Positions 1-29,403 of a stretch of DNA of 34,527 nucleotides are shown here, piece by piece. The stretch is from the IMG/VR virus record IMGVR_UViG_3300048630_000409, positions 1 to 34,527 of that record; one strand, written 5' to 3'. The position numbers and the translations under genes are program-made. The notes under the pieces were generated by a model. The model saw only the letters and a program-made list of their open reading frames with translations, was not told the origin of the DNA and ran no database searches. Position 1 is the stretch's first letter; every line of letters begins with the position of its first letter. The stretch comes from a virus. Taxonomy: Duplodnaviria > Caudoviricetes.

Positions 1-677
1 CCCGGCCGAGCGCCGCGGAACCGGCCGCGCCCACGCTGACCGAGCGCCTTTCCGCCGCCGGCCGCGCGGTGCGCGTGGTCCACGCCTTCCCCCCCTGCGA
101 CTGGGACGAGCTGGTCGGCGAGGCGTTCGACGCGCGGATCGAGTTCGCCGGCGGCACCCTGCTCCTCGCCCCGACGCCGGGCATGACCGTGATCGACATC
201 GACGGGGCCTTGCCCCCGCGCGAACTGGCGTTCGCGGCCTGCGCCCCGATCGCCGCCGCGCTGCGCCGTTTCGGGCTGGGCGGGACCATCGCGATCGATT
301 TCCCCACCCTCTCCGCGCGGGAAGAACGCCGCGCGGTCGACGCGGCGCTGGGCGCGGCGCTGGAAGGCTGGCCGCACGAGCGCACGGCGATGAACGGCTT
401 CGGCCTCGTCCAGATCGTCGCGCGGCTCGAACGGCCCTCGCTCCTCCACCTCGCGCATGTCGCGCCCGCCGCCCTCGCCGCGCGGCGCCTGCTTCGCCGG
501 GCGGAACGGGTGGCGGAGCCGGGCGCGCTGCTGCTCGCCTGCCACCCGGCGGTGGCCGCGCAGCTTGCCCCGCCCTGGCTGGAGGAGCTGACCCGCCGCA
601 CGGGCCGCGCGGTGCGGATCGAATCCGACGCCGCCCTTGCCCCGGAGGCCGGTTTCGCGCAGGCGGTGGCGGCATGA
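1..677 (+). CDS. Host ribonuclease E/G family protein, 5' truncated by window edge
   Basis: Frame open from position 3; MTVIDIDG and GTIAIDFP motifs plus GFGLVQIV match the RNase E/G catalytic domain; sits directly upstream of yacG. Confidence 0.85.
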   Translation, partial: RPSAAEPAAPTLTERLSAAGRAVRVVHAFPPCDWDELVGEAFDARIEFAGGTLLLAPTPGMTVIDIDGALPPRELAFAACAPIAAALRRFGLGGTIAIDFPTLSAREERRAVDAALGAALEGWPHERTAMNGFGLVQIVARLERPSLLHLAHVAPAALAARRLLRRAERVAEPGALLLACHPAVAAQLAPPWLEELTRRTGRAVRIESDAALAPEAGFAQAVAA

Positions 678-841
678 CCAGCCCCCGCCCCTGCCCGATC
701 TGCAAGAAGCCGCGGCGCGAGGAATTCGCCCCCTTCTGCTCCGCCCGCTGCCGCGACCGCGACCTCGCCCAGTGGTTCAACGACGGCTATGCCGTGCCCG
801 GCCGCCCCGCGTCCCCGGACGAGATCGCGCGCGAGGACTGA
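674..841 (+). CDS. yacG: DNA gyrase inhibitor YacG (55 aa)
   Basis: Manual translation MTSPRPCPICKKPRREEFAPFCSARCRDRDLAQWFNDGYAVPG; CxxC...PFCSxRCxxxDLxxW signature; ATGA overlap with upstream gene. Confidence 0.95.
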   Translation: MTSPRPCPICKKPRREEFAPFCSARCRDRDLAQWFNDGYAVPGRPASPDEIARED

Positions 842-849
842 TTCCCCCC

Positions 850-878
850 TTGCCAAGCCCGGCAGCCTTCGCCATAGG
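850..878 (+). promoter_or_regulatory. Putative sigma70 promoter for tRNA-Phe
   Basis: TTGCCA (850-855), 17-nt spacer, CATAGG (873-878); alphaproteobacterial-type -10. Confidence 0.5.
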
Positions 879-929
879 GCCGCTTCCAACCGCTCGCCGG
901 CCTTTTCCGAAGGGTCGTTCGCAGAGTGC

Positions 930-1005
930 GCCCAGGTAGCTCAGTTGGTAGAGCATGCGACTGAAAATCGCAGTGTCGGCGGTTCGATTCCGTCCCTGGG
1001 CACCA
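930..1005 (+). tRNA. tRNA-Phe (GAA); prophage integration target
   Basis: 76 nt; acceptor GCCCAGG/CCTGGGC, D-arm AGCTCAGTTGGTAGAGC, anticodon loop CTGAAAA, T-loop GGTTCGATTCC, encoded CCA. Confidence 0.98.
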
Positions 1006-1011
1006 CCCCAT

Positions 1012-2130
1012 CTATTTTTCGGTGTCTTTCCAGTCGCTTGCCGAGGTTCGGCAATTTTCCGGCGCACTAGGTTCGGCAAATTGCGACTCTAATCGCGCAA
1101 GCGCGCTGTCCGCGAGGCGGGCACGGTTGGCCTTGGCGCGATAGTGCACGAAGGTGTCAGACTTCCTGTGGCCGGTCACTGCCTGGCCCTCGGCGTCGGT
1201 GGCGCCGCGCTCGACCATCTGCCGCGATACGGACTTGCGCAGCCCATGAAGCGAGCACTGCGGTAGCCCGGCTTCATCGCACCACTTGCGCACGCGATTG
1301 CCCAGCCCTGCATCGGTGAAGGGTTTGCCGTAAACGGTGGTGATGAGGAAGCGGATCGGAGCGGCGGGAAGCGCGTCGATCGCTGCTCGCGTGGTCGAGA
1401 GCATCGGGACGCTCGTCTCATGGCTGCCCTTCGCGTGCGCGACGTAGATCCGCCCGCTGCGGATATGGTCGCGCTCGATCTTGTTTACGTTGCAGCGTCG
1501 CCCCGCGGTGTTGAGCGTCAGCTCCAGCGTCAGGCGGGCCATAGTGCCGAGAGGATGCGTTGCCCGGAACTGCTCGATCTCCTCGTCGGTCCAATCGTGG
1601 AACCCGGCGCCGTCCTTGTATTTGGCGGTCAGTTCGACCGGATTGCTGTTCCGCCACCCGAGGCGAATGGCGTGGTTCATCAGGCCCTTGAGCTTCTTAC
1701 GCAGGTCGTTCGCTGCCCCCGGTCTGTCGGCCATCTCCGCAAGCTTCGCGTCGAGCCATCCGACCGTCACCTTGTCGACTGGACGGCGGCCATAGCGCCG
1801 CCCCTTCTTGTCCTCCCGGTTGAGAAAGCGATCAATGACCTGGCCAGCGACATGCTGATATCGCGGACTATTCTTGGTCCAGTGCGCCGAGGCCTTGTAG
1901 CGCCGGAAGAGATCGTCGAGCGACCGCGGATCGACGGGCTTCGGGCTCTTGGCTCCGCCCTTCGGTATTCTGCCATCGCGCAAGATCGCCGCGACCGCTT
2001 CGAGCATCTCGGGCGAACCGGGCGGCCCGGGCACCATTGCGCTGCGGTAACCGGCCTTGCGGAAGCGATATCGGATCTTGCCATGCCGGTCGCGTTCCGG
2101 TCGAACGTTGCGCGGCAGGTCAGTCGTCAT
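1012..2130 (-). CDS. int: Tyrosine recombinase/integrase (372 aa from ATG 2130)
   Basis: Catalytic R (TAGRR), K (HAKG), HGLRK, GHR, Y (VHYR); N-terminal DRHGKIRYRFR arm-binding-like segment; adjacent to tRNA. Confidence 0.95.
   Translation of the reverse strand: MTTDLPRNVRPERDRHGKIRYRFRKAGYRSAMVPGPPGSPEMLEAVAAILRDGRIPKGGAKSPKPVDPRSLDDLFRRYKASAHWTKNSPRYQHVAGQVIDRFLNREDKKGRRYGRRPVDKVTVGWLDAKLAEMADRPGAANDLRKKLKGLMNHAIRLGWRNSNPVELTAKYKDGAGFHDWTDEEIEQFRATHPLGTMARLTLELTLNTAGRRCNVNKIERDHIRSGRIYVAHAKGSHETSVPMLSTTRAAIDALPAAPIRFLITTVYGKPFTDAGLGNRVRKWCDEAGLPQCSLHGLRKSVSRQMVERGATDAEGQAVTGHRKSDTFVHYRAKANRARLADSALARLESQFAEPSAPENCRTSASDWKDTEK
1038..1079. repeat. Direct repeat AGGTTCGGCAA x2 plus palindrome TTGCCGA-GGT-TCGGCAA; candidate integrase arm sites
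   Basis: Copies at 1044-1054 and 1069-1079; palindrome 1038-1054; 30-75 nt from the att-containing tRNA end. Confidence 0.5.
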
Positions 2131-2299
2131 CCGTCCATTCCTCCTCCGCCGCTGGCGGGGGCGGCGATTCGCCGATGATGACTTCGATCTCTGCTTTTTC
2201 CAAGCGCATGACGATCCGCGCGCAGTGGAACCCGGCCCTCGCAACCGCCTTGGTCGCCCGGTTCATGTCGTCCTGCGTGATGCGCGCGGGGGCTGTCAT
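2120..2299 (-). CDS. Small protein upstream of integrase, candidate excisionase/RDF (59 aa)
   Basis: MTAPARITQDDMNRATKAV...; overlaps int start, a position typical of xis. Confidence 0.55.
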   Translation of the reverse strand: MTAPARITQDDMNRATKAVARAGFHCARIVMRLEKAEIEVIIGESPPPPAAEEEWTDDD

Positions 2300-20064: not shown

Positions 20065-20276
20065 CGATCGAAGCCAAGAGGCACCCCCCCATGCCTGAGC
20101 GCTTCCGGGAGCGGTTCATCAAGGATGGATGGCGCGGGATCGAGCGCTACTACGGGCCTCGGACCGACGTAATGCAGCAGTGGATCGCGGAATGCGGCGG
20201 CCTGGCGGCGCTCAAGGAGGAGAGGCGTCGGTATCGCGAGAGCGTACGGACGGGGCAGGTGGTGACGCATGGCTAA
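20061..20276 (+). CDS. Small hypothetical, possibly HTH (71 aa)
   Basis: GAGGAG SD, ATGA overlap. Confidence 0.65.
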   Translation: MTIEAKRHPPMPERFRERFIKDGWRGIERYYGPRTDVMQQWIAECGGLAALKEERRRYRESVRTGQVVTHG

Positions 20277-20751
20277 GCGATCCGCCAAGTTCTCGAACGC
20301 CCTTGCGGCGAGGATCTGCAATCGGCTCGCAGAAGGGGAGAGCCTGCGGTCGATCTGCCTCGACGAGAAGATGCCAGCGCAGTCGACTGTGTTCCGATGG
20401 CTGGGGGATGATCGATACGCCAAATTCCGCGAGCAATACGCGCGCGCGCGCGAGGCCCAGGCAGATGCGATCTTCGACGAAATTCTCGACATCGCAGACG
20501 ACGGCTCCAACGACTGGATGGAGCGTCGCCGCGAGGACGGCTCGGTCGATGAGGTCGTGAACCACGAGCATATCCAGCGATCCAAGCTGCGCGTCGACGC
20601 CCGCAAGTGGATGGCCGGCAAGCTGGCTCCGAAGAAGTACGGCGAGAAGGTGCAACTTGACCACGGTGTGACCGATCAGGCGGCGGAACTGATCCGGCAG
20701 GGCATGTCCGCGAAGGAAGCGGCCGAGCGGTATCGGGAGGAATTGGGGTGA
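20269..20751 (+). CDS. terS: Terminase small subunit (Sf6 gp1-like)
   Basis: ICNRLAEGESLRSIC..MP..STVFRWL...YARARE.QAD...KLRVDARKWMAGKLAPKKYG. Confidence 0.93.
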   Translation: MAKRSAKFSNALAARICNRLAEGESLRSICLDEKMPAQSTVFRWLGDDRYAKFREQYARAREAQADAIFDEILDIADDGSNDWMERRREDGSVDEVVNHEHIQRSKLRVDARKWMAGKLAPKKYGEKVQLDHGVTDQAAELIRQGMSAKEAAERYREELG

Positions 20752-22727: not shown

Positions 22728-24668
22728 ATGTCCGGCCGCATCGTCAACGTCCGCCCCAAACCCGGCTTCGTGTTCGACGGACAGATTGTCCTGCCGTCCA
22801 ACGTCATTCCGATGCGCGATGGTCTGATCAATGCGCTCTCCGGCCGGGGCACGTCGATCGACCGCAGCCGCTACACGGCATGGTTCTTCCGGCAACTGCC
22901 GCCCGACCAGCTGCTCGCGGCCTATCGGTCGTCCTGGCTGATCTCCAAGATCGTAGGCCTCCCGCCCATGGACATGGTCCGCGAGTGGCGCGAGTGGGAG
23001 GCCGACGAGGCCGACACGAAGCGCATTGAAGCGGAGGAGGCACGACTGCGCCTGCCGCGCGCCGTGTTCGAGGCGCTGGAGTTTGGCCGGCTGGGCGGCG
23101 GCGCGGTGCTGCTCGGCACGAATGCGGCGAGCCTCGCCGAGCCCGTCCGCGCCGGCGAAAAGCTCGTCTATGTGAAAGCCCTGTCGCGGCGCCGGCTGAC
23201 GCCCGGGCCGATCGACTACGACCCGCGTAGCTCCACCTTCGACGAGCCGGAGTACTTCACGCTCAGTGGCCAGCACGGCTCCGATCAGATCCATCCTTCC
23301 CGGCTCCTGGTCTTCCGCGGCGAGCGGGTGCCCGACATCCTGGGCAGCCAGTCGGCCGACGATTGGTGGGGGGATTCGGTCATCGATCGGGTCGACCGCG
23401 CCGTGAAGGACGCCCAGCGCGTCTCGGAAGGCTATGCGGACCTGGTCGAAGAGGCGAAGCTCGACATCTACCGCATCGCTGGCATGACCGATCGCCTGCT
23501 GCAGCCGGGCGGCGAAGAGGCGATGCGCAAGCGGTTCGAGGCGACTGCGCTCGGCAAATCGAACTACCGCGGCATCTTCCTCGACAAGGAAGACGAGTGG
23601 GATCAGCGCCAGATCACCTGGGCCGGGATGCCAGAGATGGTGCGGACCTACCTCGCCATCGTGGCAGGCGCAGCCGACATCCCGGCGACCAGGCTGCTCG
23701 GCAAAGCGCCCGATGGGCAGAACGCGACCGGCGAGCACGACGAGAAGAACTACCGCAGCATGATCGCCACGCGGCAGGGCATGGAGCTGCGGCCGCAGCT
23801 GGCGAAGCTCGACGCCATCTTGCTGCCTTCGCTCGGCCTGGCTCCCGATCTCTACTGGAAGTTCTCGCCGCTCGACGTCCCCGACGAGGAGACGCGCTCC
23901 AAGATCGACAAGACCGATGCCGAGACCGCTCGCATCTATTCGGACAGCGGTCTCGTGCCGTCGCAGGCACTTGAAAAGGGTGTGCAGTCGAAGCTCATCG
24001 AAAAAGGCACATTCCCCGGGCTGAAAGACGCTCTCGACGAGCTGCCGGACCTGGAGGCGGGCGAAGGCGACGAGGGCGATTTCCTGACGGAGGAGGAGCG
24101 CCGAGCGAAAGGAGGTGATCAGCAGGTATCTGCCGGGGGCGGGCCCAACGCGTCCGCTCGCCGTGCCGCGAACGATGCCCGGTTCCTCGAGGACGCGGCT
24201 CCGAAGACGCTCTACGTCCAGCGCAAGCTGCTGAACGCGGACGAGCTGATCCGCTGGGCGAAGTCGCAGGGCATCGAAACCACCCTCGCCGCCGACGACA
24301 TGCACGTCACGATCGCTTACAGCCGCGCGCCGGTCGACTGGTTCGCCGTCGGCACGGACTGGAGCGGCGACGAGAACGGTCATGTGCGCGTCCGTCCGGG
24401 CGGCCCGCGCGATGTCGAACGCCTGGGCGACGGCGATGCGCTCGCGCTGATGTTCGTCGACGACCAGCTCGAGTGGCGGCACAACCGGATTCGCGAGGCT
24501 GGAGCGTCGTGGGATTGGCCGGATTATCGGCCGCACGTGACGCTGACCTGGCAGGCCGAGGGCGTCGATGTGTCGCAGATCGAGCCGTATACCGGGCCGC
24601 TGGTGTTCGGGCCGGAGTTGTTCAGCGAGGTCGATGAGGGGTGGAAGGCGAAGATTGAGGAAGCCTGA
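22728..24668 (+). CDS. DUF1073-type portal protein fused to C-terminal 2H phosphoesterase (Acb1-like) domain
   Basis: Portal motifs YRSSWL..KIV..P..DMVREW, IHPSRL, WGDSV, AGAADIPATRLLG..P.GQNATGE.D..NY; C-terminal HVTIAYS (aa 526) and YRPHVTL (aa 603). Confidence 0.9.
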   Translation: MSGRIVNVRPKPGFVFDGQIVLPSNVIPMRDGLINALSGRGTSIDRSRYTAWFFRQLPPDQLLAAYRSSWLISKIVGLPPMDMVREWREWEADEADTKRIEAEEARLRLPRAVFEALEFGRLGGGAVLLGTNAASLAEPVRAGEKLVYVKALSRRRLTPGPIDYDPRSSTFDEPEYFTLSGQHGSDQIHPSRLLVFRGERVPDILGSQSADDWWGDSVIDRVDRAVKDAQRVSEGYADLVEEAKLDIYRIAGMTDRLLQPGGEEAMRKRFEATALGKSNYRGIFLDKEDEWDQRQITWAGMPEMVRTYLAIVAGAADIPATRLLGKAPDGQNATGEHDEKNYRSMIATRQGMELRPQLAKLDAILLPSLGLAPDLYWKFSPLDVPDEETRSKIDKTDAETARIYSDSGLVPSQALEKGVQSKLIEKGTFPGLKDALDELPDLEAGEGDEGDFLTEEERRAKGGDQQVSAGGGPNASARRAANDARFLEDAAPKTLYVQRKLLNADELIRWAKSQGIETTLAADDMHVTIAYSRAPVDWFAVGTDWSGDENGHVRVRPGGPRDVERLGDGDALALMFVDDQLEWRHNRIREAGASWDWPDYRPHVTLTWQAEGVDVSQIEPYTGPLVFGPELFSEVDEGWKAKIEEA

Positions 24669-25507
24669 TGGCCGCCTTCGACCTCCCCGCCCTTGCGCGC
24701 CGTGAAGGCATCCGCCGCGATGTGACACTCCGGCCGATCGAGCCGACGCAGGCACATGCGAAGGAACTGGCGGCGCTCTACCTCCCGATCGTTCGCGCGT
24801 GGGCCGAAGGGATCGAAGCGATCATGGCGGGATATACCCTCCCCACGGTGGACGCCCTAACCTTGGATGCGCCCGCCGACCAGCAAGCGGCCATCGACCG
24901 CACCGCCGAGGAAGTGTCCCGCCTGATCGTCGCGTTCGGCGTCGGGATCGAGCGTCTGGCCGTCCGCATCGAGCAATGGCACCGGGCGAAGTGGATCGCG
25001 GGCGTGAAGGCCGGCACGAAGGTCGACCTCTCGACCGTGCTGACGGCGCAACCGGTGCGAGAAACGCTGGAGGCGTGGATCGCGCGCAACGTCGCGCTGG
25101 TCACCGACATCAGCGACCAGGCGAAGGGTCGCATCTCGGATGCCGTGTTCCGGGCCTATCAGAACCGGACGCCGACGCGCGAGCTGGCGCGAGAATTGCG
25201 CGAGGCGGTCGGCATGGCGCGATCCCGCGCGATCAGGGTTGCCGCCGACCAGAACACGAAGCTCAGCGGCGCGCTGGACGCCGAGCGCATGGCGGAGGCC
25301 GGCGTCGAGTGGTTCAAATGGAGGCATTCGGCAAAAAGGCATCCGCGCGAAAATCATCTCGCCCGCAACGGGAAGATCTACGACCTCAAGACGGGTAAGC
25401 GGCGTGGTGGCGGGGAGACGATCCCTAGCGATGATCGGCCCGGCATGCAGCCTTATTGCGGCTGTCGCGCTCAAGCGTGGCTTTCCATCCAAGAGGAACT
25501 GGAGTAG
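24668..25507 (+). CDS. Minor head/morphogenesis protein (Mu gpF / SPP1 gp7 family)
   Basis: RAIRVAADQNTKL, FKWRHS...PRENHLARNGKIY, PGMQPYCGCRA. Confidence 0.9.
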   Translation: MAAFDLPALARREGIRRDVTLRPIEPTQAHAKELAALYLPIVRAWAEGIEAIMAGYTLPTVDALTLDAPADQQAAIDRTAEEVSRLIVAFGVGIERLAVRIEQWHRAKWIAGVKAGTKVDLSTVLTAQPVRETLEAWIARNVALVTDISDQAKGRISDAVFRAYQNRTPTRELARELREAVGMARSRAIRVAADQNTKLSGALDAERMAEAGVEWFKWRHSAKRHPRENHLARNGKIYDLKTGKRRGGGETIPSDDRPGMQPYCGCRAQAWLSIQEELE

Positions 25508-25574
25508 AACAGGCGGGCCGGAACAGCGCGCCAACGCTGCCCGGCCCTGACCATAACGATGATTGGAGCATCGC

Positions 25575-26174
25575 ATGGCTGACCGAGCCGATATCACGCC
25601 CGAACTGTGTCGCAAACTACTCCGGTATGAACCGGAGACGGGGAAGCTCTACTGGAAGCCCCGCCCGGCAAGCATGTATCGCGATAGCCGCTGTCATGGT
25701 GGGGTCCGCACTGCTCAATGGGCAGCTGATTGTTGGAACCGGAAGTACGCTGGTCGGGAGGCATTCACGGCGAAGAACGAAGGCGGGTACCGCGTCGGAA
25801 CCATTCTCGGCGTAATGCAGCGAGCGCATCGCGTCGCTTGGGCAATCCACTACGGTGAATGGCCTTCGCATCAGATCGACCATGACGACGGGAACCGCTC
25901 CAACAACCGCATCCTGAACCTCAAGGCCGCCACCAACCGTGAGAACCATCTGAACGAGGGGCTTTCGAGCAACAATACGAGCGGTTTCACTGGGGTTTGT
26001 TGGTGCAAGCAAACGGGCCGCTGGCGCGCAATGATCCGGGTCGATGGCAAGACGCGCCACCTGGGCCGCTTCGTCTCGTTCGATGATGCTGTTGCAGCCC
26101 GCCGTGCCGCGAACGTTCGCTACGGGTTTCACCCGAACCATGGTATGCGGCCGGCATGGGAGAAAGCAGCATGA
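25575..26174 (+). CDS. HNH homing endonuclease with AP2 domain
   Basis: LLRYEPETGKLYW, AHRVAW, IDHDDGNRSNNRILNL, NNTSGFTGVCW...WRAMI...HLGRF. Confidence 0.93.
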   Translation: MADRADITPELCRKLLRYEPETGKLYWKPRPASMYRDSRCHGGVRTAQWAADCWNRKYAGREAFTAKNEGGYRVGTILGVMQRAHRVAWAIHYGEWPSHQIDHDDGNRSNNRILNLKAATNRENHLNEGLSSNNTSGFTGVCWCKQTGRWRAMIRVDGKTRHLGRFVSFDDAVAARRAANVRYGFHPNHGMRPAWEKAA

Positions 26175-26452
26175 CCCCGCTCGAACGCGCCGCGCGGGCG
26201 GTCCGCGAGGAAGCCGGCGCCTATGCCCACCCGAGCGGCGGCTTCATGACCGAAGGCGGCATCGTGGACGAGCAGCACTTCCGAGACATCGTCCGCGCCG
26301 TCCTGCAGGCGATCCGCGAGCCGAGTGAGGGGATGGAGCGAGCGGGCTATGGCAACAGCAAGGGCGACCCCGACAATGCCGGCGTCATCGACAACCCCGC
26401 CCCTATCATGGCTTGGCAAGCCATGATCGACGCCGCGCTGGAGGAAGGGTGA
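26171..26452 (+). CDS. Hypothetical phage protein
   Basis: MTPLERAARA...AIREPSEGM...WQAMIDAAL, a recurrent alphaproteobacterial phage motif. Confidence 0.75.
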   Translation: MTPLERAARAVREEAGAYAHPSGGFMTEGGIVDEQHFRDIVRAVLQAIREPSEGMERAGYGNSKGDPDNAGVIDNPAPIMAWQAMIDAALEEG

Positions 26453-26673
26453 TGGAACTCACTCCACTGGAGCCGCTCACCATCGTTGCGTCGGATCAGG
26501 AAGTGGACACCCTGCGCTCCGCGCGCGGCGGAAGAACGACGAAGATGGGGACCATGGACCACGCGCTTTTCACCGCCATGTCGTTCAAGGGCTGGGTCAA
26601 GGAAGCCATGATCCTTGGCGACGGCATTGCATGGCGCCTGACACGGGACGGGTTGACGCTGGCGGATAGCTAA
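26452..26673 (+). CDS. Hypothetical protein (73 aa)
   Basis: TGATG coupling; GGAGG SD. Confidence 0.6.
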   Translation: MELTPLEPLTIVASDQEVDTLRSARGGRTTKMGTMDHALFTAMSFKGWVKEAMILGDGIAWRLTRDGLTLADS

Positions 26674-26716: not shown

Positions 26717-27814
26717 ATGGTTCAGCTCACCGATACTCTCACGCTAGACCGAGAAGCCCGCATCTGCGCGGACGGCTCGCTCGTCGCTGAGGTATTTGCG
26801 GCCAGAACGGGCCTGCAGGACTACCTGGGCCGCGAGGTCGACCCCGAGAACAAGCACGGCCTCCGGGATAAGGCGGTCGTCAAGGTCTATCGTCCCGAAA
26901 GCGAGGTGTTCAAGACCGACAGCCTCGCCACGTTCGCGGCAGCACCGGTCACCATCGATCACCCCTCGGAAGCCGTAACCGCCGACAACTGGCGCACGCT
27001 CGGCGTCGGCGAGATCAACGGCGACATTGCGCGCGATGGCCAGCGCGTTCGCGTGCCCATCATCGTGCGCGATTCCGCCGCTGTGAAAGCCGCGACCACG
27101 ACGCACAAGCAGCTCAGCATGGGCTACGCTACCGATTTGCAGGTGCCGGCAGACGGCAAGCACCCGGACGGAACGGTGTGCGACGCCTACCAGACCAATA
27201 TCCGGATCAACCACATCGCACTTGTTCGGGCCGCTCGGGGCGGGCCGGAGCTTCGCGTGGTCGATGAACGCAGCCCCGCCACCCCTTCATCACAGGAGAC
27301 TCGCGTGAAGATCACCAACCTCGACGGTATGTCCGTCAATCTCACCGACGCCGCAGCGGTCGAGGCGGCTCTCACGAAGCTCGACCAGAAGGTGACCGAA
27401 GCCACCGAAGCGAAGGACAAGGCCCTCGCCGACGTCGCCACCCTGACCACCGACAAGGCGACGCTCGACGCCAAAGTGACCACGCTCGAGAAGCAGGTCG
27501 CCGATGCCAAGCTGACGCCGCAGCAGCTGCGCGACGCCGCCAAGGCCTACGCCGAGGTCTGCGACAAGGCCAAGGCGCTCGGCGTCACCGTCTCGGACGA
27601 CATGGACGAGCCGGCCATCATGAAGGCCGCTGTCTCGGCCAAGATCGGCGACGCCGCCAAGGACTGGAACGATGCGCAGATCGCCGCCTCGTTCGCGACG
27701 CTGACGGCGGACGCGAAGGCCGGCGCGACGGTTCCGAGCGGCCTCACCAACCCCGCCGCTTTCGCCGACGGCGCCAGCGTTCGCGACCTCGCTCGCACCG
27801 CGCAGTACAACTGA
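26717..27814 (+). CDS. DUF2213 prohead protease/scaffold
   Basis: ARTGLQDY, VYRPESEVF, PVTIDHP, QLSMGY, NHIALV..ARGG; C-terminal coiled-coil scaffold. Confidence 0.9.
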   Translation: MVQLTDTLTLDREARICADGSLVAEVFAARTGLQDYLGREVDPENKHGLRDKAVVKVYRPESEVFKTDSLATFAAAPVTIDHPSEAVTADNWRTLGVGEINGDIARDGQRVRVPIIVRDSAAVKAATTTHKQLSMGYATDLQVPADGKHPDGTVCDAYQTNIRINHIALVRAARGGPELRVVDERSPATPSSQETRVKITNLDGMSVNLTDAAAVEAALTKLDQKVTEATEAKDKALADVATLTTDKATLDAKVTTLEKQVADAKLTPQQLRDAAKAYAEVCDKAKALGVTVSDDMDEPAIMKAAVSAKIGDAAKDWNDAQIAASFATLTADAKAGATVPSGLTNPAAFADGASVRDLARTAQYN

Positions 27815-27826
27815 AGGGACTGAGCA

Positions 27827-28294
27827 ATGGCTGAACTCCAGACCAACTACGGCGAGAACCTCGCCAAGGGCTACGCGGGTATGGTCGCCAATGGCGAGAC
27901 TTCCAACCGCATCACCCGGACCTGCGAGGACGCTGCCGGTATCGGCTTCGGCGTGCCGGTCTATCGCGGGGCTGGCGACCACGGCTGCACTGCCACGGTG
28001 GGCACGCTTGCGACGTTCCTCGGCTTCTCGATCGCGACTTCGGCGCAGGCCGTCGTCGTCGGTGCCGACCCGGACGAATACGCGCAGCACGACAATGTGC
28101 CGGTCATGACCAGCGGCGCGATCTACGTCGAGGTGACCGGTGCGGTGGCCGATGGCGCTGCCCTGACCGTCGGGACGGGCGCCGACGCCGCCGACGGGAT
28201 CGGGGCCACCGCGGCCGACGCGACCCACATCGCAACCGGCTGGATTGCCGACGAAACTGTCACGGACGGCCTCTGCCGCATCGTGAAGCGCTGA
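27827..28294 (+). CDS. Head decoration/cement protein
   Basis: IGFGVPV...VPVMTSGAIYV; lies between protease and capsid. Confidence 0.8.
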   Translation: MAELQTNYGENLAKGYAGMVANGETSNRITRTCEDAAGIGFGVPVYRGAGDHGCTATVGTLATFLGFSIATSAQAVVVGADPDEYAQHDNVPVMTSGAIYVEVTGAVADGAALTVGTGADAADGIGATAADATHIATGWIADETVTDGLCRIVKR

Positions 28295-28305
28295 AGGGGG
28301 AAACC

Positions 28306-29403
28306 ATGAACGCGATCACCACCAACTTCTACGACAGCGCTTCGGGCCGGATCACCGATCCCGTGGCGTTCCTTGCCGCAGACGCCGACGTGAAGAAGCA
28401 CGTCATCGGCCTCTGGGCCGCGGACAACGCCCGCCATGCCGCGAGCTTCGCCGACAAGGTCGATGCCTTCATGAGCGATGCGCAGGTCGGCTACGCCTTC
28501 CTGACACCGCAGCTCTACCGCATCGAAACCGAAGTCTACATGACGAAGTATCCGAGCTTCGACATCAGCCGGTTCATGTCGGTCGATAGCTCGGGCGACA
28601 TGTGGGACGTCGGCACGCTCGTGTATTCGATGGACCAGGTCGGCCAGGCCGAATTCCTCGCCGCCGGCGCTTTCGACGTTCCCTACGCCAGCACGAAGAT
28701 GGCGCAGAGCACGCACAACTTCCACCTGGCCGGTATCGGCTACGAGTGGAACACGCAGGAACTCCAGCGCGCCGCCAAGCTCGGCCGGTCCCTGACGAGC
28801 GACAAGGCGCAGGCCGCCAAGCTGTCCGCCGACCGCTTCATCTACGGCATCGCGATGACGGGACAGACGCCGCGCGGCGAGAGCGAGAAGGGCTGGACCG
28901 GGTTCGTGAACAACGGCTCGGCGCCCAGTGCCCAGGTCGCCAACAACGCCGGCGGCACGTCGCGGTTGTGGTCGGAGAAGACCGCAGACGAGATCCTCGC
29001 CGACATCAATGAAGCGCTGACCGCAGTCGAGACCGGCACCGGCGAAACGATGGTCGCCGATACGCTGGTGCTCCCGACCTCGCGCTACAACTTCATCGCG
29101 ACGCAGCGGGTCGGCGACACCAACGCGACGATCCTGTCGTTCCTGCTCGCCAACAACGTGGCCGGCGAGGGCCTGACGATCCTCAAGAGCCGCGCGCTCG
29201 AAACGGCGGGCACCGGCAACAGCACCCGCATGATCGCCTACGCGAACAACCCGCAGGTGCTGAAATTCCACCTGCCCGGCCCGCACCAGTTCCTGCCGCC
29301 CTTCCAGAAGGCCAGCATGGTCTACGAGGTCGCCGGGATCATGAACGTGGGCGGCGTCGAGGTTCGACTGCCCAAGGCCCTCGTTTACCGCGACAGCTTC
29401 TGA
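28306..29403 (+). CDS. Major capsid protein (DUF2184-type)
   Basis: QLYRIETEVY, GYEWNTQELQRA...GRSL..DKA, DTLVLP, GGVEVRLP; position in head module. Confidence 0.9.
   Translation: MNAITTNFYDSASGRITDPVAFLAADADVKKHVIGLWAADNARHAASFADKVDAFMSDAQVGYAFLTPQLYRIETEVYMTKYPSFDISRFMSVDSSGDMWDVGTLVYSMDQVGQAEFLAAGAFDVPYASTKMAQSTHNFHLAGIGYEWNTQELQRAAKLGRSLTSDKAQAAKLSADRFIYGIAMTGQTPRGESEKGWTGFVNNGSAPSAQVANNAGGTSRLWSEKTADEILADINEALTAVETGTGETMVADTLVLPTSRYNFIATQRVGDTNATILSFLLANNVAGEGLTILKSRALETAGTGNSTRMIAYANNPQVLKFHLPGPHQFLPPFQKASMVYEVAGIMNVGGVEVRLPKALVYRDSF

What the first reader, a model, noticed from the sequence alone, without database searches (positions are those of the whole stretch)
22728..24668. Portal protein fused to an Acb1-like 2H phosphoesterase: possible virion-borne anti-CBASS nuclease
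Seen: one uninterrupted 646-aa ORF. About 440 aa carry DUF1073-type portal motifs, then an acidic/Gly-rich linker, then about 155 aa with two HxT motifs (MHVTIAYS, YRPHVTL) 77 aa apart. Known: paired HxT/S motifs define 2H phosphoesterases, and T4 57B/Acb1 is a 2H enzyme that degrades CBASS cyclic nucleotide signals. Inference: the fusion ties the counter-defence enzyme to capsid assembly, when CBASS is thought to be triggered, and could put about 12 copies in each virion. Similar fusions may already exist in databases; I know of no functional description.
Basis: partly seen in the sequence, partly recalled or inferred. Interest (0 to 1): 0.85.

Follow-up and report, generated by a model that had tools for sequence, protein, structure and literature searches.

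The report
Phage portal carrying detachable Acb1 enzyme
This phage's DNA-entry (portal) protein ends in a domain of the Acb1 family, predicted to destroy bacterial alarm nucleotides; such fusions are common and already in print, but a conserved junction motif suggests the head-maturation protease likely cuts the domain free inside the assembling virus head.

Summary
Observation confirmed: one 646-aa ORF, PF06381 portal (aa 61-402), disordered linker, PF23474 Acb1 domain (aa 493-641). The domain folds closest to Acb1 (Z 16.8 vs LigT about 10.5) with an intact HxT/HxT tetrad; two pocket residues differ. The fusion is not new: 646 long homologs, cultured phages including Pam3 (8HDS), NCBI 'Acb1 family' names; Iyer 2017/2022 describe 2H-portal fusions as packaged counter-signalling cargo. 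The domain is accessory: 84 of the 120 closest portals carry it, scattered over the tree. The same motif closes the leaders of this phage's capsid, protease, MuF and portal, and becomes K in HK97/XkdF/ChaB carriers (D 57 of 61 vs 0 of 20). So the prohead protease likely releases a 17.7-kDa enzyme inside the head, rather than leaving 12 tethered copies. Cleavage, substrate and ejection are untested. This scan reached the same reading earlier on two other genomes. New member of a known kind; interest 0.42.

The parts
22728..24668 (+). Portal-Acb1 fusion ORF, 646 aa (P0001)
   Evidence: TIGR01555; phrog_146 over aa 30-640; full-length match to Pam3 portal 8HDS, E 2e-115
22728..22823 (+). Portal N-terminal leader ending in predicted protease site D31|G32
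   Evidence: D31 in 104 of 107 homologs; pLDDT under 50 at aa 1-9 and 21-31; cleavage inferred
22824..24044 (+). Portal core (PF06381/DUF1073), about aa 33-439
   Evidence: VIA Z 27.6, rmsd 5.2, 394 aligned to 8HDS
24045..24194 (+). Acidic/Gly linker aa 440-489, variable and disordered, with no in-frame ATG/GTG/TTG
   Evidence: mean top-residue frequency 0.28; pLDDT; start-codon check
24109..24120 (+). 12-nt complement of the 16S rRNA 3' end inside the linker, followed by ATCT and a GC-rich stretch; function unknown
   Evidence: 14 of 105 non-redundant linkers, two reading frames; widespread phage element
24192..24197 (+). Predicted prohead-protease site D489|A490 that would release the 2H domain
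   Evidence: D 95%, A 90% of 198 fused homologs; 102 of 107 each; motif switch; cassette breakpoint
24195..24665 (+). Acb1-family 2H phosphoesterase domain aa 490-646 (17.7 kDa)
   Evidence: PF23474 156.5 bits; 7T26 E 8e-12; Foldseek E 4e-10, VIA Z 16.8
24303..24311 (+). First HxT motif, H526-V-T528
   Evidence: 107 of 107 H and T
24534..24542 (+). Second HxT motif, H603-V-T605
   Evidence: H 106 of 107; T/S 107 of 107
20269..20751 (+). Terminase small subunit
   Evidence: PF20901
21026..22681 (+). Terminase large subunit
   Evidence: phrog_2
24668..25507 (+). MuF minor head protein; conserved D67 motif (nt 24866)
   Evidence: PF04233; D in 96% of 24 homologs
26717..27814 (+). DUF2213 prohead protease-scaffold, the predicted cutter; conserved D6 and D183
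   Evidence: PF09979, phrog_530; D6 96%, D183 100% of 47 homologs; related to Drexlerviridae head maturation proteases
27827..28294 (+). Capsid cement protein
   Evidence: PF22758
28306..29403 (+). Major capsid protein; variable-length leader ends at invariant D58|A59 (nt 28477)
   Evidence: PF09950; D in 31 of 31 homologs

Best explanation
The portal gene encodes a portal protein joined by a disordered linker to an Acb1-family 2H domain that is predicted to hydrolyse cyclic di/trinucleotide immune signals, is likely cut off by the phage's own prohead protease at D489|A490 inside the assembling head, and is then likely carried in the virion and ejected into the next host cell. Shown: architecture, fold, catalytic tetrad, conserved junction Asp, accessory and swappable nature. 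From established knowledge: the portal C-terminus faces the capsid interior and there are 12 portals per head; prohead proteases cut head proteins at short motifs; prohead protease activity can trigger CD-NTases. Inferred: cleavage, retention and ejection, substrate. Unassembled portal and escaped fragments could also act in the producing cell.
For: Fold: Acb1 7T27 Z 16.8, rmsd 2.0, 135 aligned, against LigT Z 10.2-10.6. Pfam Acb1 156.5 bits vs LigT_PEase 20.7, below its cut-off. H526, T528, H603, T/S605, Y496 (103 of 107) and W639 (90 of 107) are conserved. Junction: D489 is in 102 of 107 while the linker averages 0.28; solo homologs (DSS3P8, RcXuper, FBB1, T4) lack it. Among 150 listed 50%-cluster representatives, 93 were assigned a carrier family and 81 entered the test: six residues before the first strand, D occurs in 57 of 61 PF06381/DUF2213 carriers vs 0 of 20 HK97-portal/S78/XkdF/ChaB carriers, K in 0 of 61 vs 13 of 20. 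On the C-side of continuing proteins D is 9 of 12 vs 0 of 13. Four HK97-portal loci repeat a K motif at the portal N-terminus and at the junction, and an S78 protease was confirmed in the two scanned. In D-type loci the same Asp ends the leaders of capsid (31 of 31), protease (96% and 100% of 47), MuF (96% of 24) and portal (89% of 53). E217 capsid reads AMD64|S65 and the Pa193 capsid is modelled from residue 66. Two prophages 98.8% identical over 1,568 nt diverge right after ...VNDA, one into the 2H domain and one into a 22-aa tail. Fusion partners are head or polyvalent virion proteins: three portal families, three protease families, MuF, ChaB, ART-bearing polyproteins. Pam3 8HDS models 442 of 621 residues, so no 2H. 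Literature: packaged cargo; proteases activate CBASS; portal is a protease substrate in SPN3US.
Against: No peptide, gel or enzyme data were found for any portal-fused domain. Missing cryo-EM density fits a flexible tether equally well. Clusters are not independent, so the Fisher P values (2e-15, 2e-10) overstate the case; the 2H tree is poorly resolved (8 of 99 branches starred) and carriers cluster on it. Many Asp in folded cores are equally conserved, and plain motif density does not separate head from other proteins. Five PF06381-type loci have N|A, not D|A. The Pa193 portal is modelled from residue 94, not from the AMD72 motif. Identity to T4 Acb1 is only 29%, on a very long branch. T4 W74 has no aromatic counterpart and E141 aligns to S633 (E in 49 of 107). 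Some viral 2H groups cleaved none of 18 messengers. Twelve copies per virion is a small dose against a late-acting defence.
Confidence: 0.5

Rival explanations
1. Released but acting in the producing cell: the fusion couples enzyme synthesis and release to late head assembly, when prohead protease trips CBASS; the fragment leaves the prohead with scaffold pieces, and virion delivery is incidental.
For: CBASS activation appears late, at 14 min for T4, and is triggered by prohead protease; Drexlerviridae escapers map to the related protease-scaffold; many more portal copies are made per cell than the 12 per virion (inference).
Against: A plain late gene would do this without repeated targeting to head-interior carriers; solo homologs often begin with leaders resembling T4 internal-protein starts.
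Confidence: 0.22
2. One reading: the 2H domain stays covalently tethered to the portal dodecamer and works there or on unassembled portal; the D-A dipeptide is a recombination joint or cap, not a cut site.
For: No cleavage data; the cassette breakpoint at DA could itself explain conservation; the 8HDS sequence record is full length, 621 aa; the missing density fits flexibility.
Against: A recombination joint does not explain the same Asp ending capsid, protease and MuF leaders, nor the switch to K with HK97/XkdF/ChaB carriers; a tethered domain stays in the empty capsid outside the cell after ejection.
Confidence: 0.15
3. Active 2H enzyme with another substrate: an RNase, a 2'-3' cyclic-phosphate or ADP-ribose cyclic-phosphate enzyme, or a non-CBASS signal; the PHROG label 'RNA ligase' points to RNA repair.
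For: Iyer 2017 offers an RNase role as an alternative; W74 and E141 equivalents differ; PBECR3 and InPase cargo occupy the same position; phrog_755 is labelled RNA ligase.
Against: Fold and profile are nearer Acb1 than LigT or Usb1; the C-terminal lid Trp is kept; T4 57B itself carries the RNA ligase label; no RNA ligase among the 40 window proteins scanned; all nine extra Acb1 homologs tested by Hobbs cleaved cGAMP and cAAA.
Confidence: 0.12

Closest known systems
Acb1 of phages T4 (gp57B) and FBB1 (PDB 7T26/7T27; Pfam PF23474; Hobbs 2022, PMC9117128)
   Same: 2H fold, HxT/HxT tetrad, Y12, aromatic at F107 (W597), lid W147 (W639)
   Different: Fused to a portal; 29% identity to T4; no aromatic at W74; S at E141; never assayed here
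2H phosphoesterase fusions to portal or MuF in phage polyvalent proteins (Iyer 2017 PMC5512222; Iyer 2022 PMC9503650)
   Same: Same architecture and same predicted role: packaged, injected, counters nucleotide-activated defence
   Different: The passages read do not mention protease release or carrier-matched junction motifs
Cyanophage Pam3 portal gp3 (PDB 8HDS; PMC9942802)
   Same: Full-length homolog including the 2H domain and the D|A junction; same head module
   Different: The passages read do not mention the domain; 442 of 621 residues modelled; second motif is HxS
T4 internal proteins and Alt; SPN3US protease-processed head proteins (PMC10052503)
   Same: Head cargo matured by the prohead protease at a short motif
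   Different: Those proteases cut after Glu; here the cargo rides on the portal C-terminus with a predicted Asp site
ICP3/T7-like Gp15 (bioRxiv 10.1101/2025.07.23.666291, abstract only)
   Same: A virion protein that counters CBASS
   Different: Inhibits the CapV effector and does not degrade cGAMP
LigT/Usb1-type 2H enzymes
   Same: 2H superfamily fold
   Different: Z about 9-11 vs 16.8 for Acb1; Pfam scores below cut-off

Membership tests
Acb1 (PF23474) | Profile match above curated cut-off | tested here: met
   156.5 bits vs cut-off 27; T4 202.7, FBB1 196.7
Acb1 (PF23474) | Compact 2H fold nearest to Acb1 structures | tested here: met
   pLDDT 93; top hits 7T26/7T27
Acb1 (PF23474) | HxT/HxT catalytic tetrad (T4 H44, T46, H113, T115) | tested here: met
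   H526, T528, H603, T605
Acb1 (PF23474) | Base-stacking aromatics Y12, W74, F107 and lid W147 | tested here: inconclusive
   Y496, W597 and W639 present; W74 aligns to V563 or E564, no aromatic; conserved W545 may substitute
Acb1 (PF23474) | Adenine-selecting E141 | tested here: inconclusive
   Aligns to S633 (E in 49 of 107 homologs); adjacent E634 in 92 of 107
Acb1 (PF23474) | Hydrolysis of 3'3'-cGAMP, cUA, cA3 and CBASS evasion in vivo | not testable with these tools
   needs enzyme and plaque assays
PF06381/DUF1073 portal (Pam3, E217, T1 type) | Portal fold and place between terL and head genes | tested here: met
Portal/MuF-borne polyvalent cargo (Iyer 2017) | Effector domain fused to a head protein, variable among relatives | tested here: met
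   84 of 120 portals carry it; PBECR3 replaces or follows it
Portal/MuF-borne polyvalent cargo (Iyer 2017) | Packaged in virion and injected | not testable with these tools
   no peptide-level virion data found for the domain
Prohead-protease substrate | Motif shared with the phage's other head-protein leaders | tested here: met
   the motif's meaning is inferred
Prohead-protease substrate | Actual cleavage at the motif | not testable with these tools
   indirect only: E217/Pa193 capsid start
LigT-like RNA-repair 2H | Profile above cut-off | tested here: not met
   PF02834 20.7 < 23.3; PF13563 17.3 < 27

The most novel reading that the evidence does not exclude
Acb1-family 2H domains are a general protease-released virion payload: unrelated phages hang the domain on portal, MuF, ChaB or the protease itself and re-tailor the flanking site (D, K, N, E, FA) to their own prohead protease, the very activity CBASS senses, so that the enzyme is freed in the head and injected ahead of the alarm. 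The same data define an Asp-specific cleavage motif for DUF2213 proteases, and T4 Acb1 itself may carry a capsid-targeting start.
Probability: 0.35. Interest if true: 0.75.

Novelty: new member of a known kind. Interest (0 to 1): 0.42.

Why it matters
The fusion itself is catalogued, so this locus is one more example. The value is in the testable twist. If the junction is a protease site, an anti-CBASS nuclease is delivered from the virion, and its release is wired to the protease that trips CBASS. It also predicts the cut specificity of the large DUF2213 protease family (T1-like, PB1-like, Pam3). Cultured phages with the fusion exist (Pam3, RHEph04-06, phiPSA1, HMSP1-Susan), so one virion proteomics run could settle it.

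Tried and rejected
(1) Assembly artefact: rejected. (2) Naturally split or frameshifted form in phage Yong-M3-232: the split coincides with an exact 127-nt direct repeat and its relative Ssp-JY40 is fused; most likely an assembly artefact. (3) Internal in-frame start for a free 2H protein: no ATG/GTG/TTG between codons 419 and 525, none at ribosome-binding spacing in relatives. (4) 'Prohead protease' labels on DSS3P8 and ZHS hits: these are solo 2H proteins. (5) Motif density per protein: not discriminating, as tube and cement score as high as portal; the TerL conservation control had only 5 sequences. (6) 2H tree for origin or transfer direction: unresolved. (7) Rfam and folding of the linker element: no family, and the fold is no better than shuffles, z +1.5. 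(8) Expression: no RNA holder listed. (9) GTDB scan with the portal gave only 2 loci. (10) Literature: searches listed no paper that tests a portal-fused Acb1 domain or a DUF2213 cleavage motif; most listed papers were seen as title and abstract start only. Hobbs 2022 text and nine supplements do not contain 'portal'; the names of the nine tested homologs were not found in the text I searched (figure images are not held). Doherty 2025 main text has no 'portal' or 'fused'; its table of 13 multidomain 2H proteins was not available. (11) Sequence look-up in earlier scan findings returned nothing. (12) No complex prediction was run.

Full report
Observation. The ORF at 22728-24668 (+) is 646 aa without a break. 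Pfam gives PF06381 Phage_portal_3 at aa 61-402 (E 7e-88) and PF23474 Acb1 at aa 493-641 (E 1e-44). Neighbours are terS, terL, MuF, an HNH nuclease, a DUF2213 protease-scaffold, cement, major capsid and siphovirus tail genes, with an integrase, a CI-like repressor and RecT further left. The window is the whole 34.5-kb contig. The nearest named relative is in Pelagerythrobacter (79% in the portal), so the host is probably a sphingomonad (inference). Contigs from two other marine studies bridge the junction unchanged.

The domain. AlphaFold of aa 485-646 gives pLDDT 93. Foldseek ranks Acb1 7T26/7T27 first (E 4e-10, 2e-9). VIA gives Z 16.8 (rmsd 2.0, 135 aligned), then BCSR5 PDE 14.0, and LigT about 10.5. 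With T4 numbering checked on the fetched T4 gene and a profile alignment at 99% probability, H44/T46/H113/T115 map to H526/T528/H603/T605, Y12 to Y496, F107 to W597 and W147 to W639. W74 has no aromatic partner and E141 falls on S633. In 107 fused homologs H526 and T528 are invariant and H603 is in 106; position 633 is E in 49. Identity to T4 is 29%. So it is an Acb1-family member by profile, fold and catalytic residues, with substrate range open. Doherty 2025 (parts 1-2 of 5 read) shows that viral 2H specificity varies and some groups cut nothing tested.

How common. 646 of 1,086 candidates of 355-1131 aa match the domain; 119 of the 120 listed carry PF06381 and one an HK97 portal. A profile search of 1.84 billion representatives found 4,135 hits, 1,313 below 1e-30. 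Cultured carriers include Pam3, phiPSA1, RHEph04-06 and HMSP1-Susan. NCBI and UniRef name such proteins 'anti-CBASS Acb1 family', even one that carries PBECR3 and no 2H. Of the 120 closest portals, 84 carry the domain and 36 do not. On a portal tree (one truncated row dropped) the trait needs 31 changes, at least 26 forced, no fewer than shuffles (330 of 500 as low). Some domain-less proteins could be gene-call truncations. DNA showed no 2H match in portal loci L006, L170, L212, L214 and L241. L178 and L212 are 98.8% identical over 1,568 nt and part exactly after ...VNDA. The domain is an accessory cassette.

What is in print. Iyer 2017 (passages) reports 2H fusions to MuF or portal and proposes RNase activity or degradation of immune nucleotides. 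Iyer 2022 (passages) says they are packaged and injected to counter SMODS, cyclic-mononucleotide and CRISPR signalling. Hobbs 2022 (passages, supplement 1 whole, keyword search of nine supplements) includes 112 prophage homologs and found all nine extra homologs active, without mentioning portals. I recall reviewed UniProt Acb1 entries for long fused proteins of Caulobacter and Sphingomonas; this comes from no call and, if right, a fused-type domain may already have been assayed. [quoted passage not shown]

The junction. D489-A490 is conserved in 95% and 90% of 198 fused homologs and 102 of 107 inside a linker whose mean conservation is 0.28 and which AlphaFold leaves disordered. Solo homologs start after it. 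In related loci the same Asp ends the variable capsid leader (D58, 31 of 31), flanks the protease domain (D6 96%, D183 100% of 47), and marks MuF D67 (96% of 24) and portal D31 (89% of 53). Other Asp in folded cores are as conserved, so position rather than conservation is the argument. Of the 150 listed representatives, 55 matched the query portal and 88 of the other 95 were scanned with Pfam. The domain also sits on HK97 and Mu portals, on DUF2213, S78 and XkdF proteases, and on MuF, ChaB and ART/NUDIX/InPase polyproteins. Ninety-three had an assignable carrier; 8 Mu-portal rows were left out of the test and 4 had no usable junction. D six residues before the first strand: 57 of 61 PF06381/DUF2213 vs 0 of 20 HK97/S78/XkdF/ChaB; K 0 of 61 vs 13 of 20. 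Clusters are related, so the P values are too small. In 100 non-redundant viral loci, by my reading of the printed junctions, 88 of 89 query-like portals have D there and one has it a residue earlier; four HK97 portals have K and repeat it at their own N-terminus; five divergent PF06381-type loci have N. HK97 protease cutting after Lys is recalled, not from a call; T4 I/LxE and SPN3US AXE come. Indirect support for Asp processing: E217 capsid reads AMD64|S65 and the same-length Pa193 capsid is modelled from 66. The first 93 Pa193 portal residues were not seen by LC-MS, and residues 529-765, which in E217 include an InPase cargo, have no density (passages). The portal start does not match the motif exactly.

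Mechanism. Late transcription makes portal-2H. Twelve subunits seed the prohead with the C-termini inside (established; Pam3 lists barrel and crown as innermost). The DUF2213 protease likely trims the leaders and cuts D489|A490, giving a 51-kDa portal and a 17.7-kDa acidic enzyme. Repeated targeting to head carriers argues that the enzyme is kept and ejected with the DNA, like T4 internal proteins. Action in the producing cell is the main rival, because prohead proteases activate many CD-NTases late in infection (Hobbs and Kranzusch 2026, parts 1-2 of 4) and CBASS escapers map to the Drexlerviridae protease-scaffold (passages), a family this protease matches. The two are not exclusive. A permanently tethered domain and an RNA substrate are less likely.

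Earlier scan notes. After I had reached this reading (note), two unreviewed agent notes on other genomes turned up with the same idea. They are not independent evidence; one pointed me to Iyer 2022.

Verdict. Real, ordinary in architecture and predicted in print, so a new member of a known kind. The protease-release model was not found in the ten literature searches and is cheap to test. Interest 0.42; bold reading probability 0.35, interest 0.75. Unseen supplements (Doherty Table S2, Hobbs figure labels, Pa193 and Pam3 peptide tables) could change the novelty or settle cleavage.

Noticed in passing
window 24109-24165; L171-L290: A 10-16 nt complement of the 16S rRNA 3' end sits in the portal linker of 14 of 105 loci, in two reading frames, usually followed by ATCT and a GC-rich stem, with no start codon at normal spacing. 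The same element occurs in about 810 viral stretches, mostly outside long ORFs (31 of 120 inside; 7 in this portal family). No Rfam match. Possible pause or regulatory signal.
   Followed up: partly
L089:953-1411 (-) and L089:592-879 (-): T4 Acb1 begins MMEFKDF, in register with neighbouring internal protein IPI (MKTFKEF); several solo homologs start with similar xE leaders (P0153, P0155, P0141). A 57B homolog had 2 peptides in Morganella phage MP1 virions, which the authors class as possible impurity.
   Followed up: partly
P0244: Named 'anti-CBASS protein Acb1 family protein' although it has a portal plus PBECR3 and no 2H domain: the name has spread through the portal domain.
   Followed up: yes
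L004:1467-1720: Exact 127-nt direct repeat splits the portal-2H gene in the Yong-M3-232 record; likely an assembly artefact.
   Followed up: yes
L060, L080-L083: Divergent PF06381-type portals with an N|A junction; L080 has a weak DUF2213 hit nearby, suggesting an Asn-specific protease subgroup.
   Followed up: partly
P0326, P0342, P0365, P0381, P0389, P0414; L033: The 2H domain is fused directly to the prohead protease itself.
   Followed up: partly
L006:4975-5334: Rhizobium phage N28_2 has a portal without 2H followed by a separate PBECR3 ORF.
   Followed up: no
L169:5854-6984: About 1.1 kb extra DNA between portal-2H and MuF in the Pelagerythrobacter prophage; not examined.
   Followed up: no
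window 25563-26673: HNH endonuclease and short unknown ORFs inserted between MuF and the protease.
   Followed up: no
window 69-2244: Integrase lies beside a weak RNase E/G-like fragment, probably the left prophage edge.
   Followed up: no
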